Source: Marsupella aquatica
Lineage: Eukaryota > Plantae > Marchantiophyta
DNA length: 64,000 nucleotides
Assembly (NCBI GenBank): GCA_973895155.1
Contig: OZ316891.1
Coordinates: forward strand, 29,189,611 to 29,253,610
Reading direction: 5' to 3'
In this document: one piece after another, positions 1,503-45,094 of the stretch
Position numbering within the stretch: position 1 is the first letter of the stretch
Layout of the letters: each line of letters starts with the position of its first letter
Notes under the pieces: generated by a model
Databases searched by the model: none
Seen by the model: only the letters and a program-made list of their open reading frames with translations
What the model was told of the DNA's origin: nothing
Translations under genes and position numbers: made by a program

Positions 1503-1530
1503 AGGATAGAACATGTCATAGGGTTTGGAG

Positions 1531-7924: not shown

Positions 7925-8560
7925 TAGTGGTACCACCCACCAAAGCATGATATGGCATGTCCTTTTTAGGTATGTTTGTTGGCAGTTCCGGACTAGGTAC
8001 TGGTAGAGTTTGCTCATTTGTACTGATTTGTTATGCTGAACAAATAATCCTTGGTTTTAGTTGAACAATTTTTAGCATGGGCCCTTGTAAGCTCATTGGA
8101 TTGCAATTTAACTAATTATGTCCTTGGAGATTGGTATAATAATTTGATCAAGTGATTAAAGAGCCACTAGCCATGACAAAACCTGGATCCACAAGATTTC
8201 ACCATGAGAAGTAACTTTTTTGAAATTGTGTAGTAGATTGGCAAGGGTGGTAAGGAGTTAATATATATGGCCAATGGCAGTTTGAGGAGGGAATCATAGT
8301 CATCAGCCGTATGTGGATGCGGCAGACCAAACTGGGGTGACTGGGGGAGTTTGGTTCCAGCGTGCAAGTTTTTCCGAAACCAGATTTAATAGGGCGACTC
8401 AAACCTTGAAGTTGCGGGAAACAATGACGCCTGGAACTACCAGTTTTGGTCGCGGTCAGGAGTGTGTGGACACGCATTTTTGTGTCGGACACTTTTTTCC
8501 AGGAATTTGTCGCTGACTGCGGCCAGCAGCAGAAAAGAGAGGTTTGAGACACCCTAATCA

Positions 8561-9305: not shown

Positions 9306-10906
9306 GAGAGAACGAGAGATGGAGGCAAAAGCTCGAAAAGATGGACGACGAATCGACGATTGATGCGACGGAGGAGAGCCAGTGATGCGCAGGAAGAAAG
9401 GCCTCGACACCATGAATCCGCTGGACTTCAGAGCTCTTTCATTTTTGCTTTAGGTGCCGAGATTCGGACTGGATTGCTGCTTGGACTGATGCTGCTGCTG
9501 GCCGGGACGATGCCGACGAAGGAGTAGCGCACGAGGTGGAATGGATCTTTGATGCGCGGCGGAGTGCGCCCAGGATTCGGATCTCCAGGATCCGAAACTC
9601 GTGCCAAGTGGAAGATGGAGATGATTGTTTAATTGGAATTGAACAGAGCGCTTTGATGTCCGCCTGATTTGAATCGAAGAAAAGGCGGCCCCCCCGTGGG
9701 CGAGGAGAGGAGAGGGCGCAAAATGGATCGTCAATTCAAATTGTTGCGCAGAGTCTGAGAATCCTTTCTGCCAGGTTTCAGAACACAGGACTGTTTAGTT
9801 GAGTCCCTTTGCTCGGCCTATCACATTTTACGATTTGCAAAAATGGCGGTACTAGGAAAGGGGAACGATACGATGCAAAATGATATCAATGATGCGGTAC
9901 ATTACTTTAGAGCTGGCATCCGTCGACTGGTTCTTGAGGGTGGTGATGACGCCTCTTGGCTACTGATTTAGTGCCCGCGGCAGTGGGATTTATGGTTCAT
10001 CGGGACCTTTGGAGTTTTCGCAAATAGTCTCTCGCTTGCTGGGGAAGGGAGAGCTCTTACTTAGCTCGATTGGCCGCGCCGAAGTGACACTCGCAGCAGC
10101 GTCCTGTCGACAGCGTCGAATTTTCCAACGAATTTTTTTATTCAAATCCTTTATTTTGGATTTTAGAGTTCAGGGTTTAGCGTTGAGTTTCGATTCATTC
10201 TGCTTCTTTCTTTACCACTTTATCCATCTGCGTAGTGGTGTGTGCCAATTATCAACATTACTATTTACCTGAGAAGCGGGAGAATCGACTCCAGTCCCCT
10301 GTTATCTAAGGGCCGCGCGGTTTCTGCTCAACGCCCGACTAGTTCAACTTGGGAGGTGGGAGGCGAGGAGATTTTAGTGACAAAAGTCAAGAACTTCTGG
10401 TGCAAAATTTGTGAAGATGAGTTTAAAGTAGTGCGAATTGGCCCCTTTCCTGGCTCCCTCCGAGAATTCGACGTCAGCAGCAGCAGCGAGGAAGGAAGGA
10501 AAGCTTTGCTGGCTCTGTGGGCTCTTGAGGAGGTCTACATGTCCTTGTGATCGCGCTAGAACCGGACGGACATTGGCAGCAGAAATGAATGAACGAATGT
10601 TTTCTTTTTAAGGCCTAGCCTCTTCTGGCAATAACCTTGGGGTATTTTTACCTACCAGCCTCTTGCTTCGACTTCTACTGTCAACTATCTTCTGGGAGCA
10701 CCTTAGAGTATTTCACCTCCCATGCTGTTAGTTTAAATTGTGTACTTCGATTCCCGTTGCCAGCAGATATCATTATTCTTTCTGCAAGAGGTAGAGACTG
10801 AAGTGCGTTCACTTTAGACCCACGAGGCTGGACATAGACGGGAACCATCCTCCTCGGGACACTTGAGTTCTAAGTGCCATCATCAGCAGCAGTGGCAGGA
10901 GCAGCA

Positions 10907-12112
10907 ATGGGCGACTCTAATTCCAAGCATTTCTCAGTTTCCCGGTACGTCCTTTCTCTCTTTTCGGTGCTGTGCACGTCATTTCGCCGCCTGATGCTCA
11001 GAGTACTCGCGGTGGGTCCAATTCCGAGCCACATTGCAATCATCATGGACGGGAACAGACGATACGCCGATCGGTCTGGTATGGAGCGAAGTAGGGGTCA
11101 CCTTTTAGGGTACGATCGACTGATCAACACTCTGGAGAACTGCATAGAGCTGGGCGTGAAGTACGTCTCCGTCTACGCATTCAGCATTGACAATTTCGGT
11201 CGTCCTAGGGAGGAAGTGGACTCGTTGATGAGGCTGCTGGAGGAGAAATTGGATTCACTGGTGCAGGACGATTCTGTAGTGAATGAATATGGGGTCAAGG
11301 TTCAGGTTTTGGGTGACCTGGAGCTGCTGCCAGTGAATGTGAGGGCCGCAGCTGAGCGAGCAATGGCCACTACAAAGGAGTATGGGTCATTCGTGCTGAA
11401 TCTCTGCGTGTCGTACACCTCCACAGCGGAGATTGTGCACTCAATTCAAGAGGTGCGAAAAGGTGTGTTGATGAGGACAGCTCCAGATAGAGCAGGAGCT
11501 TGTGCTCCGTTATCTGTCAATGGTCAACCGTATTCGGCTATTGCAGGACGTAGGAGGACAGCTCCTAATGGAATTAAGCATGAGCATGAGGGGCCCATCA
11601 TCAGAAACCATCCTCTGGAGAATATTAACGGTTATGCCCACGGGAACGGCAATTCTTCTGATCATGAAATTTGGAGCAAACGAGACGCTGATGGAGCTTT
11701 GCTTCCTGCACTTGATAGCATTTGCAGTGGATTGGAGCCGGTATGTGCCTGCGCAGATGAATTGCCATCCTGCAGAGCAAGGGGAAATGAAGAGTCTGCA
11801 GTTTTAGACGATAAATTGTACCCATGGGCTTTGTCAGATTCAATTAGTGTGAAGGAGATCGAGAGCCACCTGTACACGGCAGGCTGTCCTCCCCCCGATC
11901 TCCTTATTAGAACCTCTGGAGAGACTCGGCTTAGCAATTTCATGCTTTGGCAATGCTGCTCATACTCCCGTCTGGCGTTCTGTAAAGTCTTATGGCCGGA
12001 TTTCAGTCTCAGGCATTTGGCGTGGATTATATTAGACTATCAACGAGAATTTCCTGCTCTGCAGGAGCAACGAAGGTTGCAAGAACAATTGCTCGATGGT
12101 ATTGATTTGTGA
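10907..12112 (+). CDS. CPT: cis-prenyltransferase (dehydrodolichyl diphosphate synthase, DHDDS/Rer2-type), 401 aa, intronless CDS
   Basis: Conserved regions PSHIAIIMDGNRRYA, GHLLG, VYAFSIDNFGRPREEV..LM, LNLCVSYTS..EI, PDLLIRTSGETRLSNFMLWQ and LWPDFS. First ATG is at 10907 (the ORF track start at 10874 is GTG). No C-terminal RxG motif, consistent with the heteromeric (NgBR/LEW1-dependent) type. Confidence 0.93.
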   Translation: MGDSNSKHFSVSRYVLSLFSVLCTSFRRLMLRVLAVGPIPSHIAIIMDGNRRYADRSGMERSRGHLLGYDRLINTLENCIELGVKYVSVYAFSIDNFGRPREEVDSLMRLLEEKLDSLVQDDSVVNEYGVKVQVLGDLELLPVNVRAAAERAMATTKEYGSFVLNLCVSYTSTAEIVHSIQEVRKGVLMRTAPDRAGACAPLSVNGQPYSAIAGRRRTAPNGIKHEHEGPIIRNHPLENINGYAHGNGNSSDHEIWSKRDADGALLPALDSICSGLEPVCACADELPSCRARGNEESAVLDDKLYPWALSDSISVKEIESHLYTAGCPPPDLLIRTSGETRLSNFMLWQCCSYSRLAFCKVLWPDFSLRHLAWIILDYQREFPALQEQRRLQEQLLDGIDL

Positions 12113-12600: not shown

Positions 12601-15048
12601 TCAGCCTTTTATTCATGGGCTCGGTTATGAAGCCCATCATTTAAAAGCGACACACAGACATGATACACATTGTTAGGGTTTAAGAGGGTTAACTTCAAGA
12701 TTATTGTCAACCACCATACATAGATAAACAGCCTATTCCAGATTGTTCTCGTTCTAATAGATTATTTGAACCATAGCAGTCAGTGACGTTAGTTTCCCTT
12801 TGTAATCAAACAGGGACCCACTAAAAGGTGAGGAGGTTTAGTTTGGAAGATTTTGGTATCTACTTCGTTGTGGTTGAATGCACAGAAGTGCAAGCGCGTT
12901 ACAATGACAATTTTACCTCGAGGGTAAGTGGTCTTTCAATATTTATGTGGCAGTCTGTCCACACGAGTGTACAATATAAGGGGTAACGAATATAGACAAC
13001 GTTGTTCTTGACATTCCGGCCTTTCTTGAGCATCTGCTCATTTTCCAGAGTGTCGTTTCATGTGAACGGAAACGAATTCAGTTAATGCTTTTTATTCACG
13101 CCTAAGACTTTACTTTGTAAGCTTCTGCTTTTAGTACGAGTTCTCACTTCTGGGCTATTGGAGAAGGTACCTCTGGCACTTGGTTTCCGTATCTTGTCGG
13201 CTGTCGGTTGTGCAGAAATGTTTCGCACACGAGAGCTACATCGAGCTCCACTTCCGAATGCAAATCCCTCCCACTGAAGTACTCAGCTTACAAGAATTTT
13301 CTAAGATCCTAATTGTAAGTCCTGTGAGCCAGATTTTAGCAGTGGTTTTCTCTTGTTCTTAATGCCGCAGGCAAAGTGGTAGGTTGTCACCTTTTTCATG
13401 TATGATGCCCGATGGAAGCTTGATGCAGAAGTTTAAGACCGGTGGATTCTGCTAGTGGAGATGACTTCTACAAATGTCTTCCTAGAGGTTTTTGGGCTGT
13501 TGTTCTGCTGAGTTCTTCATTGTAGACAGTCGAACTCCTTAACTTTGTGTGTGCAAACTGTTAGATTAGTTTCACTTTCACGTTGTAGTGTTAGTTTTAT
13601 CGTAGGACTGCATCAAAAGATAGGATGACGTATGAAATTGTTATGGTGTTGTACCGTAGAAGAGCTCAGGATTTGCGCTTACTACATTTGAAACTACGCT
13701 CTTGAGCGTTTCTACAGGGCCCTGGTCGCTGAACTTCCGTCGCGTGTACTGACGTTCTGGAGTTTCGTCGTGTTTGGTGTCTCATTTAGGGATCACCTAA
13801 GTATTCAGACCTTTTTTTTTATGACGTCGATCGGAGTTTACTCTAGAGAAACACATGAATCAAACATACACTTACTCCGACAACTAATTTTTGCGACTTT
13901 GGATTTGGGAACGCACCTGGCATGACTCCATACAGCTACAGAAAATGGTTGTCTTATGAAGCTAGTGGACTTGTCTCCTATTAATAGACTAGAAGTTTGG
14001 ACAATGAGTATCAAAACACAAGTTGAACGGAACCATGTCAGGGTACAGATTTCTGAGGTGGGCCGCTGTGACAGCCTCGCAGACGGACCACTTTTTTCTA
14101 GCTTAGGCCGAAGGGATTAAGTAGAGGGAAACATGTCAATGTGCGAGTGAACAATCTGTTGGCATCGTGGTCAAAAAACTTGGGCACGAAGGGATGTGAA
14201 GTTGTGGTCCTTATCACTTCTTCCCTAAAACGAAAGTTCTCCTCATTGTGTGATTTGTCAATCATGCTACCATGGAGTGTCCCCGGAAGAGCCTCTAAAA
14301 CGTTTGGCTAGATTGAAGCCTCTCTCTTCAGAAATGACTTCTCTCTGAAAAACTGACTTCATGAGTGAATTTCTCCACCTACCGATGTGAAGGTTGGAGT
14401 CAACAAAAGGTAGCTGCAGAAAGCATGAGCGAAGCCAGTCCATCAAAGATCCAAACTCTCCCATCAGCAAGACTGGGCAGGTGCACATCAGACACTGAAT
14501 CCGTTTCACGACCCGGACAAAAGTGGAAATAAATACAAAATGAGGTGAAAACGGCGTAGATAAATAATCGTGAAGATTGGCTGGACAAGAACAGAAGTTC
14601 AGCACCATGCCCAGCACTATTTCTTCACCCTTTGTTGGGAGTATCTGAAGAGGCGAACATCAATACAGAAAGAGGTAGCAATTGAAGCCTATGGTCTTCC
14701 ACTACGTTTGTGCAGTTGGTGATGGGCAACAGAAGAGCTTCATGAGTTGGATTTTTCCACCCAGCCGTCTGAAAGCTATGTCAACAACAGAAGAGTGGGT
14801 GTCGGAGGTTTGAAGTCTCTTGATAGTAGTCGCTGCTAATCTTTGTATTCAAACCCTCCAACCATGTTACCAGTGCACGAGGACACTTTGTTACACGATA
14901 TTTGAGGGGAGCATTAAACTTCCTACTTCGTAAGAGAAATGCACTGGCCTACTCACTCGACAAAGCTATGCAGAGTTTACTGGAAAACTTACAGCATTTC
15001 AAAAGTTGACTTGTGTAGCATGTTTGCCTTCATTTGACTCAGACACTG

Positions 15049-15235
15049 GTATGCTTCACATTGGGGCGAGCATAGATAAGAAGAATACCACATGCTTGTC
15101 TGTCACCTGAAAAACCATAGAAAACAGACACGGATATGCTTTACATTGGGGAGAGCATAGAGAATAGAAGAATACAAATGGATGTGGGCCACATGGTCGT
15201 CTATCACCTGAAAAACATTAAAATACAAAACACAC
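15049..15235. repeat. Tandem duplication, 2 x ~85-100 bp
   Basis: TATGCTT(C/T)ACATTGGGG(C/A)GAGCATAGA...CCACATG..TCACCTGAAAAAC occurs twice. Confidence 0.75.
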
Positions 15236-15544
15236 ACTACGTCCAAGATTAGCTGAAACCAATCTTAGTTAAGTATTTTATCAAGTACTGGCTTGGTAAA
15301 GCTTGAGGGTTACCAAGAGTATCAGGGAAAGCACTTTGCTAATTTATTGGCTAAAGGGACTGAGTCCTTGCCTGAGCATAACGAAGAGGGCTAGACCAAG
15401 GGAGGCTTGTCACAGGCCAGAAAGCAACTCCAAATCAAGGGAGTAAGAGCATCTGCACTGGAGATGCTCTGGTTTCCTGGCTGGCGTGCTGCTGTAGGGA
15501 CAATTGCAGGCCGGTAACATCACACCCTCCCCAAAGACGTTATA

Positions 15545-15712
15545 CATTATCTTACATGTAACAGTGTCCTCTATCTTTTCCTTTGTAGTTTCAGTCCCTC
15601 ACCTCATGGGATTGTTCATATGTTATCTTACATGTAACCGCCTCCTCTCTTTTCCTCAGTACCTCACCTTGTGGGATTGTTAATGCGTTATCTTACTTGT
15701 AAACGCCTCCTT
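15545..15712. repeat. Degenerate tandem repeat, ~2.5 x 65-75 bp
   Basis: TTATCTTAC(A/T)TGTAA occurs three times; CCTCACCT..TGGGATTGTT occurs twice. Confidence 0.7.
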
Positions 15713-16414
15713 TCTGGTTAAGGGCATCAGTTGATTATAAGAGCATTTTGGCCAATCAAAATGTGTCACATCATCACTTTATGTCTCATAATTTGCCTAC
15801 ACAGTTTTGAGGCATGCGTAAGTCATAATTTTTTGGAATGTGCAAAGTAGGTACACTCACAGTGTGTGTGAGACGGTATGGATCCTATCTATTGTCTATC
15901 CTGTCTATTGTCTGTGCCAGACTATTTCTGGCCAGCAGGCATGCCCTTAACATTGGACAATGGGCTTGTGGTGGACCATTACGCGTATATGGTCGACCTT
16001 TATACACAGAAATGGTTCATCGCAAGACCATTACCCTATATATTGTCTTTGTACTTTCAGCCCCTCACCAGGCAGGCTCTTGCTATGGGTTTCCAAGTCT
16101 CCTAATCCCCAGCCAGCCTCTTTGAGTCTCAAAATCTAATATGAAAAGTAGTACAGGGCTAGGCTTGCTAATCCATGGCCTGTAGGGGACATAGCTGTGA
16201 TTGAAGTCTACCAGTCATGACTTATCCATAGTCTGAAGCCACGAGCTATAATTTCTCGGGCAACCATTTATTTTTCTTAGTGTAGACTATTCCAGAGACT
16301 ATATTTGTATGGGCATGGAAGTCAGCATATGTGGAGCCCTTCCTGTGATAGACATGTTTATCAGGCGAGTTACTATATTCTGGATGAAAGATCACTTTCC
16401 AACTACGATTGTTG

Positions 16415-16922: not shown

Positions 16923-17559
16923 TTGACTCTGATCAGTTGGCTAGGGAATTAGCCTAGAACTGAGAGGTCCTAGGTTCAATCCCCCCGCCACACGCAAGGG
17001 GTGTGGAGAGTATGTGTATGTGTGGGTGTGGTGTAGTGGCAGGAGTCCTGGTCAGTGTATTTTTTAAGGTTTTCTATTTTGGGCCAGTGTGGCAAATGTT
17101 TGCTTCTCTAAGGGAGGAGATTCTAGGAATATTCTCTGCCAGATTTTACTGAATTAAATGTTGACCGTTAGATATCCCTAGATTTAAGAAGGACCCTTAG
17201 ATTCTGGCTAATGGGGCCCATGATTTGGTGGAAGAGTGGCTAATGTTGTCAGAAAAATGTAGCGAATATTAGCCAAAAGTGGCGAAAGTTTTTTTGGGAG
17301 GTGGAATTTGGCTAAAATTTGCACTTAAAAAATATGCTGGTCCTGGTTTCTTGTTAGCCCTTGGCTGGTCCGTATTGGGGCGGGCTTTGGGGCCCTGGTT
17401 CAACACTCTCTCCCTCCTAGTCTGGGTTAGTGTCAGATCCTTGGGTGTTGTCCCCTTGTGGCTACCCTACATAAAACAGTATACTACCAAACAGAATGTA
17501 GATCCTTTGTTGAATTGGTGTGCTTTCCACTGTCAAGGACAAAGAAACTAAAAATAAAT
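16923..17559 (+). mobile_element. tRNA-derived SINE (~345 bp without the insert), interrupted by a hAT MITE
   Basis: A-box-like TGATCAGTTGG (16930-40) and B-box GGTTCAATCCC (16973-83). A-rich tail at ~17535-17560. Flanking direct repeat AAATCTGATCACAGTGAGTTAA (16901-22) / AAATTTGATCAGGGTGAGTTAA (17560-81), 19/22, read as the TSD. Confidence 0.75.
17053..17339 (+). mobile_element. hAT-type MITE, family A (copy 2, 287 bp)
   Basis: TIRs CAGTGTATTTTTTAAG / CTTAAAAAATATGCTG. Perfect 8-bp TSD GTCCTGGT (17045-52 / 17340-47). Confidence 0.9.
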
Positions 17560-24151: not shown

Positions 24152-25213
24152 TATTTCGTCAGCTTTGGCGCCAGTTGTGGAATTTGACAGTCACAATCTA
24201 AGTAACTGCATCTATTGTCCTATTTATGCCGGCATTGTTGAGTGTTGGCAGGGGCTCAACTGACTATTGTGGCCTATTACAGATACGAAGTGAGAACACC
24301 AGTCGTCATCCTGGGAAAAATGTGTTGTGTAATATCGTTTTAAACGGACTGGGGTCCTCAGGTCAAATATAGCACCGTTGGCTTAATTATGCATAAGTAG
24401 TACCGACAGCAGTCGTGCTGTTGTCTTCGACTACTCGACTGCCCTGATGTAAATAGCCATATCTTCGACTGGCTATTTTCTTAACCCTGTTTGCACCAGG
24501 GTTGCAACTGAATGGGCTTGACCGCTTGACCCTTTGTATCGCCTCACTGTTTCTCTATCTCCTTTCCCCAAATTTGAAAGGGTCAAGCATTAATGACATT
24601 GGACTACAGTTTGCACAGAAATGTTCACTCCTTTCTGAGCTTCCGCTTTCTAGAGGAGTTTTGGGCTCGATTGTTCTGTGTATTATTGTGCAATGGCAGG
24701 CTTACCCCCTATCTCTCTCGAGGACCCGTCTCCCGTGAACTACCTTTTCCCTGAAAACAAACCCCTCACTCGTTGCCTAGGTTATTTATCTCAAGTGCAA
24801 GTTTTTCCGGAGTGGACTTGGATTCAAAATTATTGGATATGCAGGGACAGTACACATGCATTTTCTCCAAAATGGAGACAGGTTTTCGCACTTCGAATCC
24901 GTAATAGGCTATGTCCGGAAAGCCCCATATATTGCCTCAACAATTCGGATTCTCATATGAACGTTCTGACTGGATGATCTCTGATAAGGCGCCGGTGAAA
25001 GGGCATGATGAGTAGACGAGAATGTCTGAACAGAGCAAGCCATGCCCTGGGAGTTGCTGAGCCAGTCGTGCGGGAATATGGGGAGTACAGCTCTTACAGG
25101 AAGCTCCAACTGACTAAATATTGGTGAGCTGAAGAGTCCATGAGTCTAGTTAGGAAATTACTACGAGAAGAGCTTACTCAATTGTAAATGACCGATTGAC
25201 TATAGGTGATTAG

Positions 25214-25345
25214 GGGCTGAAATTAGTTCTCTCAAAGCAATGACCCGTTGGTGATTAGCGGCTGAAATTGGTTCTCTCAAAGCAATGTGACCCAAGGCAG
25301 CCTCTTGAAAGCAAGTGCGGACCCAAGGCAGCCTCTTGAAGGCAA
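25214..25345. repeat. Two abutting short duplications
   Basis: GGCTGAAATT(A/G)GTTCTCTCAAAGCAATG twice, followed by GACCCAAGGCAGCCTCTTGAA twice. Confidence 0.85.
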
Positions 25346-26216
25346 ATGCGGAGTAGATACTCCGAGTTGGGGTTTTTTGAACAATCAAGAAATACTTTGC
25401 CAAATTGGTTAAACGTGTAACTCCGATCACGGAAATTGGTGTATTCTGAAGCAGTAAGTTAAATCTCTTCGGATCGTTATAATTATCCATCTCCACCCAA
25501 AATTGATTGAAACTATGAATGGAAATCTGTCAAATTTTATGGGAGTTCATTTCTAATCTCGTACCTCTTGGCGGTGATAACAATTGACATTACTTGCCTG
25601 AAACCGAATGGAGCTATTTGTAATGTAGTCGGATGGAGAAGGACCGCAGTTCAGCTATGGCAACTACTACAAGAAGCGGTGCAACATCTCAGGAAAGGCA
25701 CCACTCAACGTTTCATGCTGAGTGCTTCGCAAGACACAATAGAAACCTTAACTACATCCTCTGTTTGGACCCAACCTGCGTGCCAGGACTTTGGGTCTCC
25801 TTGTGAAATGATCGAGACCTTGCAAACGAGCTCGAATGTGTCTACCAGTCCTGCCGCAAAGCTGCAGCTCCCTGGAACAGCTTGGCGTTTCTCTCAAAAA
25901 GCAGGTGATTAAATTACCAGGAGATATGTGGTAGTCACTTGATAACTATCAAGCTGAGTGCTGAAAACCGGTAGTATCATGGTTGATAACTCGATTCCTG
26001 GATTGACTAAACATGGACAGAAAGTGCGCTGAAAATTTCTCCACTGAGCTGTCTAAAACGATTAAATCTCTTAAGGATTTTTATCTTTGTATCAGTGTTG
26101 GGCGTAATGTGTTCACATGTGCATGAGTCTATGCGGGCCAAAACTGCTACAAGGGCTTTGGGATATGTTTCATTTTCAGTCAGAGGCAGTTCTGTTGGAG
26201 TAGAATGAGGCAATTT

Positions 26217-26549
26217 TGTTGGAAATGAATCACACTCGAACTGATGAGGATGCCAGCATCAAGGGCCTTTAGCTTAGTGGCAGAGCAGTACAATGTACAC
26301 GGGAGGTCCTAGGTTCAATTTCTAGCCGGTCCATGCTGTTGACAATTCCAACTTGGTATCAGAGCCAAAGATCAGGAGTTTCCCTTGTAGCAAGTGTGGC
26401 CCAAGGGAGAGTGTTGGAAATGAACCACATTCGAACTGGTGAGGGATCCAGGCATCAAGGTCCAATAGCTCAGTGGTAGAGCGCTAAGATGTACATGAGA
26501 GGTGCTAGGTTAAATTCCTAGCCGGTCCAAGGAGTTGAAAATTCCAACA
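26217..26549 (+). mobile_element. Complete TRIM (non-autonomous LTR retrotransposon) with tRNA-derived LTRs (Helenus-like)
   Basis: 5' LTR 26217-26353 and 3' LTR 26412-26549 (TGTTGGAA...TTCCAACA). PBS TGGTATCAGAGCC (26354-66, tRNA-iMet type). PPT AAGGGAGAG (26403-11). Perfect 5-bp TSD AATTT (26212-16 / 26550-54). A 71-nt tRNA-like unit sits in each LTR (26263-26333, 26459-26529). Confidence 0.92.
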
Positions 26550-28753
26550 AATTTCCAGAATGGGACAATTTAGAGTTAGAGTCAATTCCTGGCTGGTCCA
26601 TGGTGTTGACAATTTCAACAAATATCCAGAATGGGACAACTTTGAGTTAGAGCAAGACCCCACTGCCTCAACAAGAGTGTCATGAGTCATTCTGTGTTGG
26701 TGGGAGAATCTGTGGTTACGTTTTCTTGGCTTACTTGTTACTAGCTTTCCCCACTTAACAGCAATGATCATCCTTCATTTTATCATTCTTTAAAGTATAA
26801 CTCTAATGTATTGTGCATTTTGGTACAGAGTACACAATACAGGCTGGACTGCCCAATATGCACATTGTAATCTTAGGTTTCCAGGTTTGCTTCTAGTGTA
26901 GAAAAAGAGACTTAAAAACAGGGAAGAGTGGAATCGCTAATGAACTCAAATATACTAATATTCAACAACCTTACTAATGGAAAATTAGCCCCTCAAAACT
27001 TGGATAGAATCCCCCACTTTGGGCCCTTTTACAGCCCACAACGCACTGTTAACAGGTGTGACTAGATCCACAAAATGCACATGGCAACTCATTGGAAAGA
27101 TAGATGTGAGTCTGTATACAGTAATGCTCCTGTCTCGGGCGTTGTAGGCTATAATGTCCCCAAAATTGAGGCTTCACACTAAGTTTGTAGGGGCTATGAT
27201 TGCCCACATGACCTGGTAACAAGGTTAGTACCTTTTATCCCTGAAAATATTGTGTGATCTTACTAGTTTTTATCCTGTTTCTCTTCACACTTCAAGACAA
27301 ACCTAAATTTCATGACAAGTAGAGGAAGAGTCTCAAAATGCCCTTGCAGTGCGTGTGATCGGCATTCTCTTCCATGAAGCTCAGAAATGTACATGGAGGA
27401 AACTCTTGCATGGATTTCAGTTGATAAACTGTTCCTTGAGGCTGTCAATCACAGAATGTCTCACCTTGCATCTAGTGCATTATGCATATTCGGGAGTCAT
27501 GCATTTCTTTTTGCAAGACAAGTAGTAGAATGATTGCAAGAGTAGTAGTGCAAGAAACTCACACCATTCAAGGCCATGAGCACATGGACAAATGTCAAAG
27601 TTAGCACGTCTAGCTGTCCCAGACAAATTCTGTCAAGAATGTAAGTTTTGATTATATCCAACTATTGCAATTCAGGACCACACATAAGCCGTCATAAATA
27701 GACTGTCCCGAAAGCAGAACCTGGTGGATCCAGGTTGCCATAATTAGTTAGAAAATGTTCTTTGCACAGCAAAAAAATGCCTGCTTTGTCCTTCCAGAGG
27801 TTTGGGGTCAGTGGTAATTGAGCTTCTCCTTAAGTGAGGACACTGGCAGTCTAAACAAATATACTAGTCCCTTACTAAATGCAAGCCCTTGAGGGTACCC
27901 ATGGCCCATAGAGTAGTTGCAAATCTCAATAAGTGCAATATTTACTTCAAATCGCACTTATTGATCAATACAATTATAGGGTCTTCTAGTGCCATTTTTG
28001 GTACATGCAAAACTTTCAATTCTTGTACTTGTCAAGAAATTTCAGCCATCAATCAAAGCGATTGAAATGTGAAGGTGAGACCGTATTGTAACTAAAACAT
28101 ACAGATTGAAAAATTGCATTTAAGGGCTCAAAAATTTAGATCTAAAATCTGTGTTCCACAAAAATTGCATCAAAAAAGTGTTGGGGATCTAATTGGACAA
28201 CATGATAGCAGTGTAGGTCAGTCACCTGGGCAAATTAAGAGTGGTCTGGTGTAGGCAGGGTCAGTTTTATAATAGTTTGGATAAGTATGTCCATCCAAGA
28301 CTCCAGAACCAACCTTAATGACTTTTCTTTCCTAGTGAAAACCTGTTTGACCTTGACCAATACTTGAGCCTAACTATGGTAGACCCCAAAGAGACCAAGG
28401 AGGCCCCCACAAACCTAAGAGTCCAAGCCACAACAAAGAGCGAAAAGCCTACAAAGCTAGAAGGGAGGGAGGGTGGAAGGCCAGCCCCCAACATTTCTTT
28501 CAGTTGTGGCAAAATCCCACCTACAGCAAAGTGCTTCTCCACCCGTTTGGATCTCATTATCCAACTTTCCACCAAGCCACAAGGTCTATCCAAAACAGCC
28601 TTAAGGGTACGAGTGTCCTACCACAGGATGTGAGTGGGAGAGCCTTAGTACCTTGCCATCCTGTTTACTGTCATCCTGGTCCAGCAATAAATAAATTATC
28701 ATGAAAATGTTGGAGGTCACTGACAGAACATGTCAGAGTGGTTGTGTTTGGAC

Positions 28754-29030
28754 CAGTGTTTTCTTTTAGTGGTGAAAATTTGCCAAATTCCACCTCCCCA
28801 AAAAACTTTAGCAACTTTTGGCTAAAATTAGTTAGTATCTTTTGGTCTCATTAGCTAGTGTCCCACCTAATCACAGGTCCATTAGCCAGAATCTAATGGT
28901 CCTCCTTAAATCTAGGGAGATCTGAGGGTCAGGAAAATAATCAGATAAGTAATATTTTGAGCATCTTCTCCTGCACACACTGGACATTTGCCACTATGGC
29001 CAAAAAGTAAAATCCTTCAAAAATACGCTG
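28754..29030 (-). mobile_element. hAT-type MITE, family A (copy 3, 277 bp, opposite orientation to copy 2)
   Basis: TIRs CAGTGTTTTCTTTTAG / CTTCAAAAATACGCTG. TSD GTTTGGAC / GTTTTGAC (7/8). Internal CCATTAGCCAGAATCTAA and TTAAATCTAGGGA are the reverse complement of copy 2. Confidence 0.88.
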
Positions 29031-30050: not shown

Positions 30051-31400
30051 GTGGAGTGATTTCTCCACTGATTTGTCCACAGCTTCTTCAGTCCATCGAC
30101 GCAAAAGAATGTGGACCGCATCGCCTTTCTTGCCCTCGATCCACTCGCAGCCAGACTGGTAGAGACTTGAGGAGTAGAGTGATTCTTCCACAGCTTCTGC
30201 ATTGCTCAGGCGGGAAGTGTGTGACATTTTTCATCGGGTACAATGCAGAATTTGGACTGCTATAGACTAGAGGAGTAGAGTGATTCCTCCACAGCTTCTG
30301 CAGTGCACAGGCGGGGAAGTGTGTGACATTTTTCATCAGGTACAATGCAGAATTTGGAGTGTTAGAGACTAGAGGAGTAGAGTGATTCCTAGCCTCCACA
30401 GCTTCTGCAGTGCACAGGCGGGAAGTGTGTGACATTTTTCATCTGGTATAATGCAGAATTTGGACTGCTAGAGACTAGAGGAGTAGAGTGATTCCTCCAC
30501 AGCTACTGCACTGCACAGGCGGGAAGTGCGTGACATCATCAGGTATAATGCAAAATTTGTACTGCTAGAGACTAGAGGAGTGGAGTGATTTGTTCACTGC
30601 TTCGGCAGTCCCACAGTTCGGGAACTGTGTGACATTTGTCATCAGGCATTATGCAGAATTTGGGCCGAATTGCCTTTCTTGCCCTCGATCTGCACGACCT
30701 CGACTCCATTCCATTCAGAGAACTGTGGCCAGACCGCTAGAGCTTAGTGGAGTAGAGTGATTCGTCCACAGCTTTTCACTGCATAAGTAGGAACTGGGTG
30801 GCGTTTTCACCTATACTCATAATGGCTTTCTTGCCCTCGATCTGCTCGTACTCGACTCCGTTCCATTGAGAGGAGGGTGGCCAGACATCTAGAAGCTTGT
30901 AGAGGGGTGGAGTGATTCGTGGGCAGCGTGATCTCTGCACGTAAATCACATTCGCATTATTTGCAGCTCATCCCCAACATTAGCGATTCGTCCACAGCTT
31001 CTTCACGGGCTTCTTCACTGTGCAAGCGGGAATTGGGTGACATTTTTATCGACGCGTAATGCAGAATCTGTACTGGGTCACCGTTCTTGCCCTCGATCTG
31101 CTCGCACTCGAGTCAGTTCAATTCGGAGGACGGTGGCCAGACCGCTAGAGCCTCCTAGAAGACTGGAGTGCTTGATCTCTGAACGCAAATCACATTCACA
31201 TTGTTTTTATAGCTCATCCCCAACATCTCCTCCCCCTGGAAGTTCAGCCTCCCTTGCTTCACTAGCCAGCCAGACAGCCCTTTCACTCCCAAAGTCCAAG
31301 CGGGAACTGTGAGACTTCCATCGACGCATATTGCAGAAATTGTACCGGATCTTCTTTGCTGCTCTCGATCTGCTCGTACTCAGCTTTGTTCCATTCAGAG
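30051..31400. repeat. Tandem array: four ~100-bp core units plus longer degenerate units, each core unit an imperfect palindrome
   Basis: Anchor GGAGT(A/G)GAGTGATT at 30171, 30272, 30374, 30480, 30577 and 30749, with a variant at ~30905. The CTTGCCCTCGATC module recurs at ~30130, 30678, 30830 and 31087, with a variant at ~31360. Confidence 0.92.
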
Positions 31401-36310: not shown

Positions 36311-39300
36311 ATGACGGGAACGAGAAGCAGTAGCATAGGAATGGTGGTTTTCTGGGTTCTCGTCCAGGTGCTCGTTTTGGTGTCACAATGCCGAGTAAAT
36401 GTGGAAGCTCTGTCACCTGATGGACGGACTCTTCTGGCTCTCAAGTCCACTATCGATGACCCCGCCGGAGTCCTTGCCGACTGGGTGGAATCGTCTCCAT
36501 CACCTTGCAACTGGACAGCCATTCGGTGCGACGTGCTGGGCAATGTGATCACAGTGGACTTCTCGCAGTTGTCTCTCGGTGGGAACCTTTCAGGTGCAAT
36601 TGGATCGCTGTCATACTTGACCACTCTCAACCTGGACTCGAACAACTTCACTGGGCCACTGCCCAAGGAAATCACCTGGCTGACTCGCCTCAAATTCTTT
36701 AACATTAGCAACAATAGCTTCTCAGCTGGCTTACCGTCCATCTCGAATCTCACCCGACTTACAGTGCTGGATTGCTACAACAACAACCTCTCTGGAGAGC
36801 TGCCTGTTGAGATTGTCACGCTGAGAAGTTTGAATCACGTTCATTTGGGTGGCAACATTTTCTCAGGAAGCATTCCCAGAGAGTATGGCAGCTTTAGTAG
36901 GAGTCTTCAGTACCTCTCCCTCTCCGGCAACGACCTGACTGGAGTCATCCCGCCTGAGCTAGGAAATCTCACAGGGCTGACCCATTTGTATCTGGGATGG
37001 TATAATTCGTTTCAGGGTGGGATCCCTCCTGAACTAGGGAGGCTCAGTGAGTTGGTATTGTTGGATCTGTCTTCCTGTCAGCTGAGTGGCAGCGTGCCCA
37101 GTGAACTAGGCAACCTCACTCGGTTGGAAACCCTGTTTCTGTACACGAATAATCTGAGCGGGACTCTTCCTCCGCTGGACAAACTCGGGAACCTTCGCTC
37201 ATTGGATGTGTCGCTTAACCTTTTCCACGGCGCAATTCCTGAATCGTATGGCAAAATGCTCAATCTCACACTGCTAAATGTATTCAAGAATTTTTTGAGC
37301 GGAGACATACCGGAAGCACTGGGAGACTTGCCCCAGCTCCAGGTTTTACAGATGTGGATGAACAATTTGACAGGGGCGATTCCCCAGCGATTGGGGACGA
37401 GTGGGAACCTTGTGGAGCTTGATGTATCCGACAACCTGCTCCATGAAGGGTTACCTCCGAATTTGTGCATGGGTGGGAACCTGCAGACACTGATCACCTA
37501 CGAAAATTCCCTCTCTGGGGAAATTCCTGCCGGCGTGGCAAATTGCACCTCGCTGCGATACATTCGCATGTTCAGCAATCTGTTTTCTGGAAGGATTCCT
37601 CCAGGTTTCTTCACTCTTCCAAATGCCACCATGCTTCAGTTGCATAAGAACAACTTCTCGGGTCCCATCCCTGACGTGATCCACTCTCCTCTCCTCCAAA
37701 AGCTTGATCTATCTGAGAACCAACTGGATGGGACTATACCGGAAGCCATTGGTGACCTCAGCTCATTGCAAACCCTTCATTTGGACAGAAATGATCTCAC
37801 AGGAGGCGTCCCTTCCAGAATCTGTGATATGCAGGGCCTCTACGATGTTGAGCTCAGCTGGAATAAGCTTAGTGGTGAGATACCATCCACTCTGGGCAAC
37901 TGTTCCGTGCTTTCCAAGTTGGATCTGAGCTGGAACAATTTGACTGGAGAGATTCCCAAGTCGCTGGTGCACCTCGAATCGCTTGCAATCCTCGATCTGT
38001 CACGCAATCAACTGAGCGGACAAATTCCAGAGGCGTTTGGGTCCATAACAACCCTCACACAGGTTGATTTTGCCTTCAACAACTTTTCGGGGCCCATTCC
38101 TACTCAGGGGGACGCTGAAAATTACAACGCGACCGCGTTTGCTGGTAACCCATTTCTTTGTGGAGGAGGCCAGTACCGTGCTTGTTCCAACACCACCTCT
38201 GGAGAGAAGGGAAATGATCGGACGCTACTGGCCTGGCTTGTGGGGGCATTGTTCGCTGCTGCGTTGCTTGTCCTACTTATCGGCGTCTGCTGTTTCTGCA
38301 AAAAGTTTCGATATTACATCATTGGGATGTTCAGGAAGGAAGGGACAGTGCGCCCCTGGAAGTTCACGCCATTCCAGCGGCTGGATTTCACGGCAGTTGA
38401 AATTGTGGAGTGTCTGAACGACGAGAACATCATTGGGAGGGGTGGTGCTGGGACAGTGTATAGGGGGGAGATGGCAAACGGAGAGATGGTTGCTGTGAAG
38501 AAGCTGGCATGTGGTAAGGGGATGTCCTCCCATGACCATGGTTTTTCAGCTGAGATTCGAACTCTGGGGAAAATCCGGCACCGTTACATTGTCCGGTTGC
38601 TAGGATTTTGTACCAATAACGAGATGAATCTCTTGGTGTATGAATACATGCCCAACGGAAGTCTTGGGGAGTTTCTCCATGACAGCAAGAAGAATGGGCT
38701 GCTAGACTGGAATACCAGGTATACCATAGCTTTACAAGCTGCCACTGGGCTTTCATACTTGCATCATGACTGCTCACCTCTGATTGTGCATAGGGATGTC
38801 AAGTCGAACAATATATTGTTAGATCAAAATCTGGAGGCCCATGTTGCAGACTTCGGTTTGGCCAAGCTTTTCCAGGACAGTGGGAAGTCTGAATCCATGT
38901 CCTCCATAGCTGGCTCTTATGGTTACATTGCCCCCGAGTATGCCTATACTCTCAAGGTGAACGAGAAGAGTGACATCTACAGCTTCGGAGTGGTCTTGAT
39001 GGAGCTGCTCACTGGCAAGCGGCCCATCGAGCCTGAGTTCGGAGATGGGGTGGACATTGTGCAGTGGGTCCGGCTTAAAATCCAAACCAAAGAGGGGGTC
39101 TTGGAAATTCTGGATCCCAAAATTGGAGGAGTCATCAGTCCAGTTCCTCTTCAAGAGGTCATGCTGGTGCTCAGAGTTTCTCTCCTGTGTTCTAGTGACC
39201 AGCCTGTAGACCGACCTACAATGAGAGACGTGGTGCAAATGCTGTGGGATGTTAGGCCCACAATCAGGGCAGGAAGCATGGATAGCCGGGAGCTCAAACC

Positions 39301-39337
39301 TCAACCAGTGCTTACCGATGACCTCCTCAAGTTTTAA
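36311..39337 (+). CDS. CLV1: LRR receptor-like kinase, subfamily XI, CLAVATA1/BAM clade, 1008 aa, intronless CDS
   Basis: Signal peptide, SPSPCNWTAIRC cap, ~21 plant LRRs (LxxNxLSGxIP), AFAGNPFLCG, TM helix, WKFTPFQRLDF, IIGRGGAGTVY, SHDHGFSAEIRTLGKIRHRYIVRLLGFC, HRDVKSNN, DFG and ESMSSIAGSYGYIAPEYAYTLKV. First ATG is at 36311 (the ORF track start is GTG; alternative ATG at 36341). Confidence 0.93.
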   Translation: MTGTRSSSIGMVVFWVLVQVLVLVSQCRVNVEALSPDGRTLLALKSTIDDPAGVLADWVESSPSPCNWTAIRCDVLGNVITVDFSQLSLGGNLSGAIGSLSYLTTLNLDSNNFTGPLPKEITWLTRLKFFNISNNSFSAGLPSISNLTRLTVLDCYNNNLSGELPVEIVTLRSLNHVHLGGNIFSGSIPREYGSFSRSLQYLSLSGNDLTGVIPPELGNLTGLTHLYLGWYNSFQGGIPPELGRLSELVLLDLSSCQLSGSVPSELGNLTRLETLFLYTNNLSGTLPPLDKLGNLRSLDVSLNLFHGAIPESYGKMLNLTLLNVFKNFLSGDIPEALGDLPQLQVLQMWMNNLTGAIPQRLGTSGNLVELDVSDNLLHEGLPPNLCMGGNLQTLITYENSLSGEIPAGVANCTSLRYIRMFSNLFSGRIPPGFFTLPNATMLQLHKNNFSGPIPDVIHSPLLQKLDLSENQLDGTIPEAIGDLSSLQTLHLDRNDLTGGVPSRICDMQGLYDVELSWNKLSGEIPSTLGNCSVLSKLDLSWNNLTGEIPKSLVHLESLAILDLSRNQLSGQIPEAFGSITTLTQVDFAFNNFSGPIPTQGDAENYNATAFAGNPFLCGGGQYRACSNTTSGEKGNDRTLLAWLVGALFAAALLVLLIGVCCFCKKFRYYIIGMFRKEGTVRPWKFTPFQRLDFTAVEIVECLNDENIIGRGGAGTVYRGEMANGEMVAVKKLACGKGMSSHDHGFSAEIRTLGKIRHRYIVRLLGFCTNNEMNLLVYEYMPNGSLGEFLHDSKKNGLLDWNTRYTIALQAATGLSYLHHDCSPLIVHRDVKSNNILLDQNLEAHVADFGLAKLFQDSGKSESMSSIAGSYGYIAPEYAYTLKVNEKSDIYSFGVVLMELLTGKRPIEPEFGDGVDIVQWVRLKIQTKEGVLEILDPKIGGVISPVPLQEVMLVLRVSLLCSSDQPVDRPTMRDVVQMLWDVRPTIRAGSMDSRELKPQPVLTDDLLKF

Positions 39338-41117: not shown

Positions 41118-43010
41118 CTAGACTGAAGCGACCAAACTAGGCTGCACGGGGAACCCGGACAAATTCGGAGCATCGTCGCCAGTATCAAAAGGACACACAG
41201 GTAACCACCACCAAGATTTCTTACGAACGTTACACATCAGCATTTTCTTTACTCGGTAGCTAACGAAGCATATGTAATCCCCATCTGCTACAAACAGATT
41301 ATGGGCTCCCGAGTCTCCTCCTCTTGAGAGTCCCGGCAGCAAAGCCTCAGGCACTCTCAACACTTCCACCCATTCCATCTGAAGACTATCCAGCTGCCAA
41401 ACACAGATACTCTTCATTGTACCCCAGAGTGCTATCGCCCCCACCATCATAAGATATCCCCTGCTGACAAATAGCTGCGGCCATGCAAGATGGGCGGGCA
41501 TTGGGGCTCGCACATCCTCCAAAAGTCCTCGATCAATATGGTAAGCTAAGACACTAGTGACTGCGCCATATGCTAAACAATACAGAATCCCCTGCGTATA
41601 CGCTGTGCCGACAATCAGGGCAAGTCTCCTCAGCACTCTGCCAGTCATCTGCCATGAGTCGCTGGCAGAATCATACACTTGCAGCTTCAGATCATCTCCG
41701 TTTCGAGCGACGAGAATTTTGTAAGTATTGGTTACACTGTCCACCACCATACCAACTACATAGGGCTTGGACAGGGGCATCCAAATTGTTGGAGGGAGTC
41801 GTCTCCGGGCCTTGGTGATTGGATTCGAGACGTACAAGTTCAGGCTTCCTTCTTCTGGTTCAGAAAGTGTGTCCATCAAGCAAAGCAGACCTCCAGCAGC
41901 AGCTAAGATCACGAAGGTACTAGGCGAATTGCCTGCAGTGACAATGGAAATGCAATGAGAGATATTTCTTGAAAAGTCTTTTTAGAATTCCAGCACTGCT
42001 ATCATCGCTTTGAAAGTGGCTCCTCAACGTGGAAAATTCCCAGAGAACCACACTTGTCGTTTATACCATATCCTAATTCTTATGTGCAGTCCAATTAGTA
42101 TTTATTATCGGTACAGTGCTCATATTTAACCAATTGGGTTAATGTACAAATTGTGTCGAAGACAACAATGTTGCCTGGGGTGACAATGGGACTGCAATTG
42201 GACAAAATACTCGAGTTCTTTTGAAGGTTTACAGCACAATTCTGACATCTTTCAGAAATGATTCAGTATTGACCCTTGTAAGTTGAGGTAGTCCTAGAAC
42301 CAACATCCACCACTTATTACAATAAAACTGAATCCTCATTTTGCGGAACCGTCACCTTACTGAAATTTAAAACCCGCCTGAGATCCTATCCAAAACTCGA
42401 CTACTATCCATTTATTCGCAATGGCACATATTCGTGAAATTGTTGGTTTTCGCGATTCAAAACCAGCAGAGGAGGAGCAGAAGGACTTGCCTGGAGGAGA
42501 AGAGTTTAGGGTTTGGGGCAGCAGATGCCAATTGTTCCCCGCAGGATCGTAAACGGGATAGCTTTGTCTCGCTTGATCAGCGTAAAGGAGGAATATTGGT
42601 GGGGAAGGACTGCGGCTAGTTTCTGCCCGAGCATGGTTCTCCAGAAAAACGGGATTCGATGTGAGAGCATTCCATCTCTTACAGACACAGCGAAGACGAA
42701 GAATACTAAGCACTGGCAGCTTTGCGAGGATGTTCTCCGTTAGATGCTCTGGAAGCTCCCCCCAGAAATCGCCATCCATCTCCGCCTCAGAGCACTGCTG
42801 CTGCTCCACCCTAAACCCAAGATCATCAAACGCAGGCCGCTCTGTTGTAGACAGTTCCTCATTGGATAGAGTTTCTACAAATTCCGCATTGCGTCCAGAT
42901 GCTGTGACATAGCCCAGTCGCTCAAAAATTCCGAGGTCTGAGAGTTTCTCAGCAACGCAAACGACATCTCCCGATCTATTCTCGAGAGCTGCAGTTGGGA
43001 TTTCGTCCAT
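41118..43010 (-). CDS. F-box protein with kelch-like beta-propeller (At5g15710/LCR/UFO-like group), paralog 1, 444 aa
   Basis: Exons 42491-43010 and 41118-41932 joined by a phase-1 GC-AG intron (1335 nt). F-box LPEHLTENILAKLPVLSILRLRCVCKRWN, followed by AAAGGLLC, YVSNPITK, VYDSASDSW and WWWLPVCP. Confidence 0.9.
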
Positions 43011-45094
43011 TTCTCAATGCCTTTCGCGAAACAACCGATCAACTCTGGAAACATCCGATGATGAAGAGTACTAGCCCCGATTAGCAGTTTAAAGAACGTG
43101 AATAGCCGTAGGAAAATAAAAATGTTAGCCATGAATATGAATAAGAATATATTATTCAAAGATTAATGAAATTTTAAAAAAAAATCTCATGTTATTATTT
43201 TAATAATTATGCATAAAATAGGATACTTGAATCTATGCATAATTATCCCTGTTTCTGCAAGTATGATTGTTATGGTGGGGCCATATGACACATTTTTTAA
43301 TGTAAATAGAAACCATGACAAAAAGCATGCATGCTTATAATTTGATATGACATATATCATCCCATCCACATGATGGTGAGTCATGAAATTACGGTCGAGG
43401 ATTCACTCTAGAAGCCTAGGCCCCAACTCTAGCTTGTAGTTGACACTTTATAAATAAGATAGTAAAGTTGATTTTACAAGATGTTGGGGAACATGCTTTT
43501 TGTCACCAAAGCCTGTTCTTGTTCAAATCATAGAATCACCACACCTAAATCTTTTGAAATAAAGTTCAATAAAGGCAAATCCTTTGCATGAGGGAACCTT
43601 AAGTTTATAAATGTGTGGACAAATGTAAATGTTTTGAAAGCTTTTAGGGACATTGCCACTATTTTATTTGTATTTACAAATATGCCACAAATTTGGTATA
43701 TAGTTATCTCCCTAAACTTGTCATCCATTTTTGTAAATACAAAAAATAGTGACAATATTGTAGAACATCTTTAGTACCTCTGAATCCTTTGAACAAAAGA
43801 GCCACAGTTTGGAAATGTTAGGTCAATAAATGCAGATGCTTTGAATAAATGAGCCATATTTTAAAAATGTTTGGACAACTAAGAGCATCCGCAGCCATCG
43901 GGTGTGGGCTGGCATTTTTGGAAAAATATAGCAGCTCAAGACACTTTGTTGGGTTGCACCGGATGTATGCATCATCAATTTTTATTCAGGTGTTTGTATC
44001 CAAACTTTCCCAACTGAAACAGTTGCCCTTTTTTCCAGGTCTGGTATTCTTGTTTTGCCAACTTTTCACTCGCCTCTAGAGTGACTTAAGGTCATGGTAT
44101 ATGATCAATCGTTATGGCAAAAAGTTATCGACTATGAATTTTGCAGTCATAAAGTTTCTGTCCATAACCTGAACTAATAAGTTAAGGTCCATCCAATTGT
44201 GAGATTTGGGACCCTGTAATGCAATCAAAGTTTGGAGATGTTTAGACAATAATTATGAATCCCTTCAATGGAGGAACCAAAGTTTGGACCATCTGTGCCT
44301 GGAGATGGTCCAAAATTATAGACAAAATAAACACTTCATGTTTACTTCGGCCCATTGCTTGCCATGTAAAATCTGTAGAGACCATAATGGGCCCCAAGTT
44401 TTTGTACAGCCAATTGCACCCTTTTCCACTCATTTTATAATCCAGATTCAATCGAGGATTTAATTGTACTGGGAATTAAACGAAGCACTGGACCCGACCT
44501 CTTGTAAAGCCACCCTCATTCGATTTCTTTACATTCATGGCAGACTGTCCATCTCATTGCATTCCTTTATTCCCTTCCCTTTGCTGCACTTTGGTGAAAT
44601 CTGCTCCATCTGCCTATCTTCTTCAAAGTCGGAGTTCTCAGTTGGGTGTATTGTCAAAGAGGTTTAGGCTCTTCTTTGGTCTAGGTCCAACAGATTGCGG
44701 AACGCTGCAATTCCTGCTCTTTGCCCAATACATCCATCTCAAAAACCCCCATAATCCCCTCGCCAGCCTGGCCAGGGTCCAAGTCTTAATCCCCAGCAAA
44801 CCTCAGTGAGTCACAATATTTCAAATTTTCATTTGGAACAAGAGTTGTTGAGGGTTAGACTTGCTAGCCCATAGCCTGTTTGATATCATAGTTACCCTAC
44901 ACATAGCAACAACATAGAAAAATCTACATTATGTGCTTCTACATTCTGGACAAGAGTTCCTAGGAAACTCACGTACTGCTGCATATGGGGTTCTGCCATT
45001 CAATGTTGCCCATTATAATTGTACTTAAAAGGAGAGAAGGCATGAGGGCATAATTATGTCTTCACATTTCCAAATTTATCTACAGTGTGGAGAG

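What the first reader, a model, noticed from the sequence alone, without database searches (positions are those of the whole stretch)
26217..26549. Minimal 333-bp LTR retrotransposon whose LTRs are built around a tRNA-like Pol III cassette
Seen: two ~137-bp LTRs, an iMet-type PBS, a PPT, only 58 bp of internal sequence and a perfect AATTT TSD. Each LTR holds a 71-nt tRNA mimic: A-box TAGCT(T/C)AGTGG, D-stem GCT(T/C)/GAGC, T-stem CTAGG/(T/C)CTAG around a B-box loop, partial acceptor pairing (GGGCC/GGTCC+A in the 5' LTR), and a scrambled anticodon arm. Known: Cassandra TRIMs carry 5S-derived LTRs, and as I recall tRNA-LTR TRIMs have been described as 'Helenus' from a few fungal, animal and plant genomes. 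The architecture therefore has precedent, but this family and host may be unreported. Inference: Pol III transcription from an internal promoter, with mobilisation in trans by an iMet-primed LTR element, making it a SINE-like parasite of the LTR pathway.
Basis: partly seen in the sequence, partly recalled or inferred. Interest (0 to 1): 0.85.

Follow-up and report, generated by a model that had tools for sequence, protein, structure and literature searches.

The report
Helenus-type mini retrotransposon in a liverwort
This is an old copy of a tiny, gene-less jumping element with a broken tRNA look-alike in each end repeat, which likely serves as its promoter; the type was described in 2024 as Helenus, and what is new is its host, a leafy liverwort, where it forms a multi-copy family.

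Summary
The element is real: LTRs of 137 and 138 bp, a 58-bp interior with a tRNA-Met PBS and a PPT, AATTT on both sides, and a tRNA-like cassette in each LTR (Rfam 27.6 and 32.6 bits; ARAGORN none). Public contigs show a dispersed family in two related organisms, and most other copies read the intact letter at these places. Two neighbouring genes place the host among leafy liverworts. The 2024 Helenus paper lists one plant family, in Selaginella; my paper searches found no liverwort record. By eye the cassette is about 80% like the Selaginella one, but a fungal family is as close, so shared descent is open. Pol III transcription and the helper element are inferred, not shown. This scan has noted Helenus-type elements before on other DNA (111 notes, at least 21 genomes), none under 'liverwort'. 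Verdict: new member of a known kind, in a new host phylum.

The parts
26212..26216 (+). left target-site duplication AATTT
26217..26353 (+). 5' LTR, 137 bp; starts TGTTGGAA, ends CAACT in this copy (A in 95-99% of the depth of other copies)
26263..26333 (+). tRNA-like cassette 1; A box 26270-26280, B box 26312-26322; D and T stems paired, anticodon arm broken
   Evidence: Rfam RF00005 27.6 bits; stem counts
26354..26366 (+). primer-binding site TGGTATCAGAGCC, complementary to the 3' end of tRNA-Met
   Evidence: the motif is named as tRNA-Met PBS in PMC3852365 (passage); only match in the window
26354..26411 (+). 58-bp non-coding interior; predicted hairpin that pairs with the PPT (z -1.6, weak)
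26403..26411 (+). polypurine tract, 9 purines, abutting the 3' LTR
   Evidence: the same PPT-LTR junction in 10 and 11 other contigs
26412..26549 (+). 3' LTR, 138 bp, TGTTGGAA...TTCCAACA
26459..26529 (+). tRNA-like cassette 2; A box 26466-26476, B box 26508-26518 with the conserved C replaced at 26512
   Evidence: Rfam RF00005 32.6 bits
26550..26554 (+). right target-site duplication AATTT
26581..26651 (+). tandem duplicate (71 bp) of the 3' junction: last ~40 bp of the LTR, the TSD (AATAT here, AATTT in organism B) and ~26 bp of flank; made after the insertion

Best explanation
This is a decayed copy of a multi-copy, non-coding miniature LTR retrotransposon of the Helenus type in a leafy liverwort, and intact members are likely transcribed by RNA polymerase III from the tRNA-like cassette in the 5' LTR and likely copied by the proteins of an autonomous element that primes with tRNA-Met. 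Shown: the anatomy, the 5-bp TSD of this copy, the dispersed family, intact boxes in other copies, the host lineage. Inferred: (1) the A and B boxes would recruit TFIIIC, and transcription would start near 26263. (2) The element has no run of four T, so the RNA would read through PBS, interior and PPT into the second cassette, which would make the cassette the repeated R region. (3) Host tRNA-Met would prime at the PBS, the PPT would prime the second strand, and a borrowed integrase would make the 5-bp TSD. The helper is more likely a Copia (about 0.65) than a chromovirus (about 0.3). The cassette is a promoter remnant, not a working tRNA. This copy is old (about 0.18 substitutions per site between its LTRs) and likely inert.
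For: Anatomy. Longest stop-free frame 68 aa. Family: 211, 138 and 337 contigs were laid in runs X1, X2, X3. On the 5' LTR plus interior, 156 (X1) and 251 (X3) were laid; 25 and 23 of them leave the LTR exactly behind 26352 into mixed flanks (agreement 0.39, 0.40), and 10 and 11 run from the PPT into an LTR start (agreement 0.92, 0.89). Summed depth over the element is 117-9950 against 17.8 in the unique flank of X1. Where this copy breaks a functional feature, other copies mostly do not: D-stem 26275 (92%, 83% of depth), D-loop 26281 next to the A box (98%, 100%), B box and T stem 26321 (97%, 96%), LTR end 26353 (95%, 99%). Host: best named hits are Calypogeia fissa at 76% and 85%, against 68% for Marchantia; the tree groups the window with Calypogeia and one unnamed protein at 100/99. 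Helenus definition, size range 311-1263 bp and 5-bp TSDs in plants and fungi: PMC10886601. tRNA-Met PBS is used by plant Copia lineages with full-tRNA primers and by most chromoviruses: PMC6317226.
Against: No transcript or Pol III data were seen, and the Helenus paper itself states that the promoter is unvalidated. The lack of a T4 run is not significant (753 of 2000 shuffles also lack one). TSDs of other copies could not be read. No helper was found: none of 168 of the window's 208 stop-free frames of 75 aa or more hit a retroelement family, and no genome is held. Contigs were laid by likeness to this copy, so the best-conserved stretches are over-counted and depth is not a copy number. One A-box position varies among copies (26277, 6% and 18%).
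Confidence: 0.85

Rival explanations
1. An ordinary Pol II-transcribed (or read-through-transcribed) TRIM whose LTR once took up a tRNA gene or SINE head; the cassette is a passenger.
For: No expression data. A 46-bp U3 lies upstream of the cassette. A decayed tRNA-like head that shares 17 nt of the T arm lies at 16959-16983 (nhmmer E 0.016), so tRNA-derived repeats may be about as donors.
Against: The cassette is half of the LTR. Boxes and D/T stems are kept across copies while the anticodon arm is broken and the 15 bp upstream vary at 7 places. I saw no TATA-like motif in U3 (by eye).
Confidence: 0.15
2. The LTR cassette is processed into a tRNA-like RNA that primes the element's own reverse transcription.
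For: The acceptor and T stems are largely kept and end in a discriminator A. The idea comes from scan notes on diatom elements, unchecked.
Against: The best 12-mer match between a cassette and the PBS complement is 6 and 7 of 12, and not at the 3' end. The PBS is a perfect match to the standard plant tRNA-Met motif. The Helenus paper also found no such complementarity.
Confidence: 0.02
3. Not a retroelement: a local tandem duplication of a tRNA pseudogene or SINE that mimics two LTRs.
For: This genome makes short tandem duplications readily; three more lie within 1.3 kb (periods 31, 45, 71).
Against: PBS and PPT sit exactly at the two LTR borders, the TSD is perfect, and dozens of other contigs show the same LTR-PBS, PPT-LTR and LTR-flank junctions.
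Confidence: 0.01

Closest known systems
Helenus-1_SMo of Selaginella moellendorffii (Kojima 2024, PMC10886601)
   Same: Size 325 vs 333 bp; 5-bp TSD; tRNA-Met 3'-end type PBS (11 of 12 letters alike); TGTT start and TTCCAACA end; cassette close to the LTR's 3' end (16 vs 20 bp). By eye, 44 and 43 of 55 cassette positions outside the anticodon arm are identical for the 5' and 3' LTR; both have a G3-U70 pair and A73 (supplement passages).
   Different: LTR 137 vs 120 bp, interior 58 vs 85 bp. U3, anticodon arm (16 vs 17 nt) and most of the interior show no clear likeness by eye. The Selaginella LTR has a T4 run behind the cassette; this element has none. Host is a liverwort, not a lycophyte. It is a different family.
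Helenus-1_AmAr of the fungus Amylostereum areolatum (same paper)
   Same: By eye the 3' half of its cassette matches this 5' LTR at 24 of 30, the same as the Selaginella family does. The 8-mer GAGGTCCT occurs twice in the supplement, in these two families only (line breaks can hide matches). Its interior also begins TGGTA.
   Different: Longer LTR, fungal form of the PBS, A3-U70 instead of G3-U70, two more letters in the D loop.
Cassandra (5S-bearing plant TRIM; PMC7215508 passages)
   Same: Non-coding TRIM with a Pol III gene remnant in each LTR and the same PBS.
   Different: 5S-derived type 1 promoter instead of tRNA-type boxes; its box A and box C motifs have no match here; 565-860 bp; reported from vascular plants.
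tRNA-derived SINEs (SINE2)
   Same: Non-autonomous, with a tRNA-derived A/B-box head.
   Different: This element has LTRs, PBS, PPT and a 5-bp TSD, and no simple-repeat tail; it would use the LTR route, not target-primed reverse transcription.

Membership tests
Helenus | TRIM under 1000 bp, two LTRs, no coding capacity | tested here: met
   333 bp; longest stop-free frame 68 aa
Helenus | tRNA-like sequence in each LTR, with TRGCY..YGG (box A) and GGTTC (box B) | tested here: met
   Rfam hits in both LTRs; box A motif in both; GGTTC in the 5' LTR, broken in the 3' LTR of this copy; no variant at 12% or more within GGTTC in other copies
Helenus | PBS behind the 5' LTR and PPT before the 3' LTR | tested here: met
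Helenus | 5-bp TSD (plant and fungal families) | tested here: met
   AATTT on both sides of this copy; not readable for other copies
Helenus | Dispersed multi-copy family | tested here: met
   25 and 23 contigs leave the LTR end into mixed flanks
Helenus | Cassette not a working tRNA gene (true of most families) | tested here: met
   ARAGORN 0 genes; 16-nt anticodon arm with 1/5 and 3/5 pairs; tRNAscan-SE not available
Helenus | Transcription by Pol III (presumed in the paper, not shown there) | not testable with these tools
   needs RNA ends or ChIP
Helenus-1_SMo lineage | Common descent with the Selaginella family | tested here: inconclusive
   by-eye likeness about 80% in the cassette, equalled by a fungal family; U3 not clearly alignable
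Cassandra | 5S rRNA-derived box A and box C in the LTR | tested here: not met
   0 motif matches; no 5S match among 5 Rfam hits
SINE2 | Single tRNA head with a LINE-like or simple-repeat tail, no LTRs | tested here: not met
   two LTRs, PBS, PPT

The most novel reading that the evidence does not exclude
The liverwort and Selaginella families are one lineage that goes back to the split of bryophytes and vascular plants, which would make it older than Cassandra, or they share it with agaricomycete fungi by horizontal transfer. In that case the paired stems, kept through changes on both sides between the two plants (acceptor pair 5-68, T-stem pair 51-63, by eye) together with G3-U70 and A73 (recalled as the alanine identity mark), would mean that selection acts on the RNA fold as well as on the DNA boxes, for instance so that tRNA-processing enzymes set the ends of the genomic RNA.
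Probability: 0.2. Interest if true: 0.65.

Novelty: new member of a known kind. Interest (0 to 1): 0.38.

Why it matters
It gives Helenus a second land-plant lineage and, as far as my searches reach, its first non-vascular plant host. With one plant family there was nothing to compare; with two, the question of one ancient origin, repeated tRNA capture or fungus-plant transfer becomes testable across bryophyte and lycophyte genomes. Practically, such families inflate tRNA gene counts and scatter Pol III boxes near genes (this copy lies 2 kb behind a lunapark-like gene). This single copy is old and likely has no activity of its own.

Tried and rejected
No genome is held for the window, so copies, solo LTRs, TSDs and helpers could not be counted. 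No RNA holder listed. A pattern for 'B box, then LTR end, then tRNA-Met PBS' gave 0 hits in viral contigs and 16 in metagenome contigs; 0 of 16 were Helenus-like (chance matches, ordinary tRNA genes, plant LTR elements without a cassette). I first read the joint 26549 to 26396 as a tandem array and dropped that: it is a 5' LTR-PBS junction of another copy laid on the 3' LTR. An empty site was not found; the matching contig of organism B carries the LTR end too. Run X3 gives no cover of the left flank, which shows nothing. The sequence look-up in earlier notes returned one irrelevant hit. The 21-nt antisense match to the interior at 26135-26155 is at chance level (E 3.1). No paper on liverwort substitution rates was found, so I give no age in years. 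Self-priming: rejected. Cassandra: rejected.

Full report
1. Observation. The described element is present at the given coordinates: 5' LTR 26217-26353, interior 26354-26411, 3' LTR 26412-26549, AATTT on both sides. The LTRs match each other at E 7e-33 in the window; the chance of AATTT at the fixed right-hand place is about 0.002. The interior starts with TGGTATCAGAGCC, the only such motif in the window, which PMC3852365 names as complementary to tRNA-Met (passage), and ends in 9 purines. The longest stop-free frame is 68 aa. Rfam finds a tRNA-like unit in each LTR, at 27.6 and 32.6 bits against a gathering score of 29; ARAGORN calls none. D and T stems pair fully in both, the acceptor stem at 5/7 and 4/7, and the anticodon arm is 16 nt with 1/5 and 3/5 pairs. 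The cassettes fold no better than shuffles.

2. This copy is old. The LTRs share 114 of 139 columns, or 0.18 +/- 0.04 substitutions per site. The 5' LTR ends in CT. The 5' B box has lost the C that closes the T stem, and the 3' B box has lost the C of GGTTC. A 71-bp tandem duplication copied the 3' junction with its TSD; the three LTR ends differ from each other at 7, 6 and 7 of 39 places, so the duplication likely came soon after the insertion. In run X3 (organism B) one contig covers 26592-27200 with 30 other letters and 11 gap places, begins in the LTR end and reads AATTT behind it; the insertion is thus likely older than the split of these two versions of the locus. The element is intergenic, about 2 kb behind a lunapark-like gene.

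3. It belongs to a dispersed family. No genome is held, so I laid public contigs of three runs on the locus (two of organism A, one of organism B, two studies; none on record as RNA). 211, 138 and 337 contigs were laid, with depth concentrated on the element. On one LTR plus the interior (X1 and X3 only, 2 of the 3 runs) 156 and 251 contigs were laid. 25 and 23 leave the LTR right behind 26352 into mixed sequence, as independent insertions or solo LTRs would; 10 and 11 pass from the PPT into an LTR start. Summed depth in X1 runs from about 120-320 in U3 and 800-1400 over most of the interior to 9950 over the T arm, against 17.8 in the flank. The tool warns that this is no copy number; tens to hundreds of copies is a fair reading. 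Table 3 lists 26 differences at 12% or more. At four places where this copy breaks a feature, most other copies do not: 26275 (D stem; 92% and 83% of depth), 26281 (98%, 100%), 26321 (B box and T stem; 97%, 96%), 26353 (terminal A; 95%, 99%). Between 26293 and 26335 no other variant is listed; 7 places vary in 26248-26262. Against over-reading: contigs are recruited by likeness to this copy, one A-box position varies (26277; 6%, 18%), and TSDs of other copies cannot be read from these tables. Organisms A and B share loci with the same piece coordinates (table 8), so they are close relatives and do not show a wide distribution.

4. Host. The cis-prenyltransferase at 10907-12112 is closest to Calypogeia fissa (76% over 99%; Riccia 55-57% over about 60%). 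The CLV1-like kinase at 36311-39337 is 85% identical to Calypogeia, 68% to Marchantia and at most 57% to mosses and lycophytes. A tree of the first protein with 20 of the 120 listed hits groups the window with Calypogeia and one unnamed protein at 100/99, beside the Riccia clade. Calypogeia is a leafy liverwort, Jungermanniopsida. I place the host in that class and no closer.

5. How it likely works. Inferred, by analogy with Cassandra and from the boxes: TFIIIC binds the A and B boxes, Pol III starts near 26263, meets no T4 run inside the element (first one at 26721) and passes through PBS, interior, PPT and U3 into the second cassette. The cassette would then be the repeated region needed for strand transfer. 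The missing T run fits this but is not unusual (753 of 2000 shuffles lack one). Host tRNA-Met would prime; a helper would supply Gag, RT and integrase. In plants a full tRNA-Met primer is used by the Copia lineages that use whole tRNAs and by most chromoviruses (PMC6317226, passages), so the PBS does not name the helper; I favour Copia because the paper links fungal Helenus, with 5-bp TSDs, to Copia. No retroelement domain was found in 168 of the window's 208 stop-free frames of 75 aa or more (the 40 left out mostly overlap the genes or the element's flanks). Self-priming by the cassette fails: 6 and 7 of 12 at best.

6. Comparison with what is known. Kojima 2024 (PMC10886601; I read parts 1-4 and 6 of 6 and searched the supplement four times) defines Helenus as TRIMs with tRNA-derived LTR sequence, 311-1263 bp. 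All defining features that I could test are met. The only plant family listed is Helenus-1_SMo of Selaginella: LTR 120, interior 85, 5-bp TSD. I compared it by eye, not with an aligner. Outside the anticodon arm 44 of 55 (5' LTR) and 43 of 55 (3' LTR) cassette positions are identical; the two window cassettes share 46 of 55 with each other. The PBS type, the LTR end and the cassette's position agree; U3, the anticodon arm and most of the interior do not clearly align, so this is a different family. The exact PBS 12-mer of this element has 0 matches in the supplement. Against simple common descent: the fungal Helenus-1_AmAr matches the 3' half of the cassette equally (24 of 30) and matches the Selaginella family at 29 of 30; an oyster family reaches 19 of 30 (by eye); and the 17-mer around the A box occurs 12 times in the supplement, in fungi and animals. 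Likeness in a tRNA cassette can come from separate captures of similar tRNAs. Cassandra is excluded.

7. Novelty. Searches for Helenus with TRIM and tRNA, Helenus with retrotransposon since 2024 and TRIMp3 found the original paper and passing mentions (PMC13570524 and PMC12859917, passages; PMC10946416, listing only). Searches that joined liverwort with TRIM, tRNA, SINE or LTR terms found nothing relevant (one preprint checked, 0 occurrences). A 2016 survey found TRIMs in Selaginella and algae but none in Physcomitrella (PMC4717578, passages). Subscription journals, Repbase, Dfam and bioRxiv supplements were not searchable, so an unpublished entry cannot be excluded. Within this scan, 111 notes in at least 21 genomes hold the Helenus words, none with 'liverwort' and none for this genome; these notes are unchecked and are not used as support.

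8. Verdict. A real, old copy of a new Helenus family in a new host phylum. Odds: Helenus-type TRIM about 0.93; Pol III-driven about 0.65-0.7; shared ancestry or transfer with the Selaginella and agaricomycete families about 0.2. Interest 0.38; novelty: new member of a known kind.

Noticed in passing
window 16925-16995 (+): Decayed tRNA-like head: an A-box-like stretch and a T arm that shares 17 nt exactly with the LTR cassette (nhmmer E 0.016; no Rfam hit). It could be a SINE head or a remnant of a related LTR, and might add to the excess depth over the T arm.
   Followed up: partly
window 26193-26673: The target site itself begins TGTTG (26193) and ends CAACA (26673); without the TRIM and the duplication about 72 bp remain. 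No TSD flanks it. It may be a small older LTR-like piece or chance.
   Followed up: no
window 25205-25350, 15040-15715, 49705-49948, 30154-30663, 8560-9305: Many short tandem duplications and minisatellite-like arrays.
   Followed up: no
window 41118-43013 (-) and 51251-53797 (+): Two F-box / KIB1-4 beta-propeller genes in inverted orientation, 71-74% alike at DNA level.
   Followed up: no
window 36311-39337 (+): Intronless CLAVATA1-like LRR receptor kinase, 68% identical to MpCLV1.
   Followed up: partly
window 54720-54831: Long hairpin with a weak MIR828 model match on both strands (42 bits, gathering 69); an inverted repeat or an unknown miRNA precursor.
   Followed up: no
window 59141-59333 and 60690-60880: 193-bp direct repeat, 91% alike, 1.55 kb apart; no PBS motif was found beside it.
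   Followed up: partly
window 17053-17343 and 28750-29030; 45095-45571; 45931-48152: Dispersed inverted repeat pairs, 72-85% alike, probably old transposon pieces.
   Followed up: no
L004 478-600: A metagenome contig holds a plant-type TRIM junction (LTR end, tRNA-Met PBS, about 70-bp interior, PPT, LTR start) with a B-box-like word but no Rfam tRNA match.
   Followed up: no
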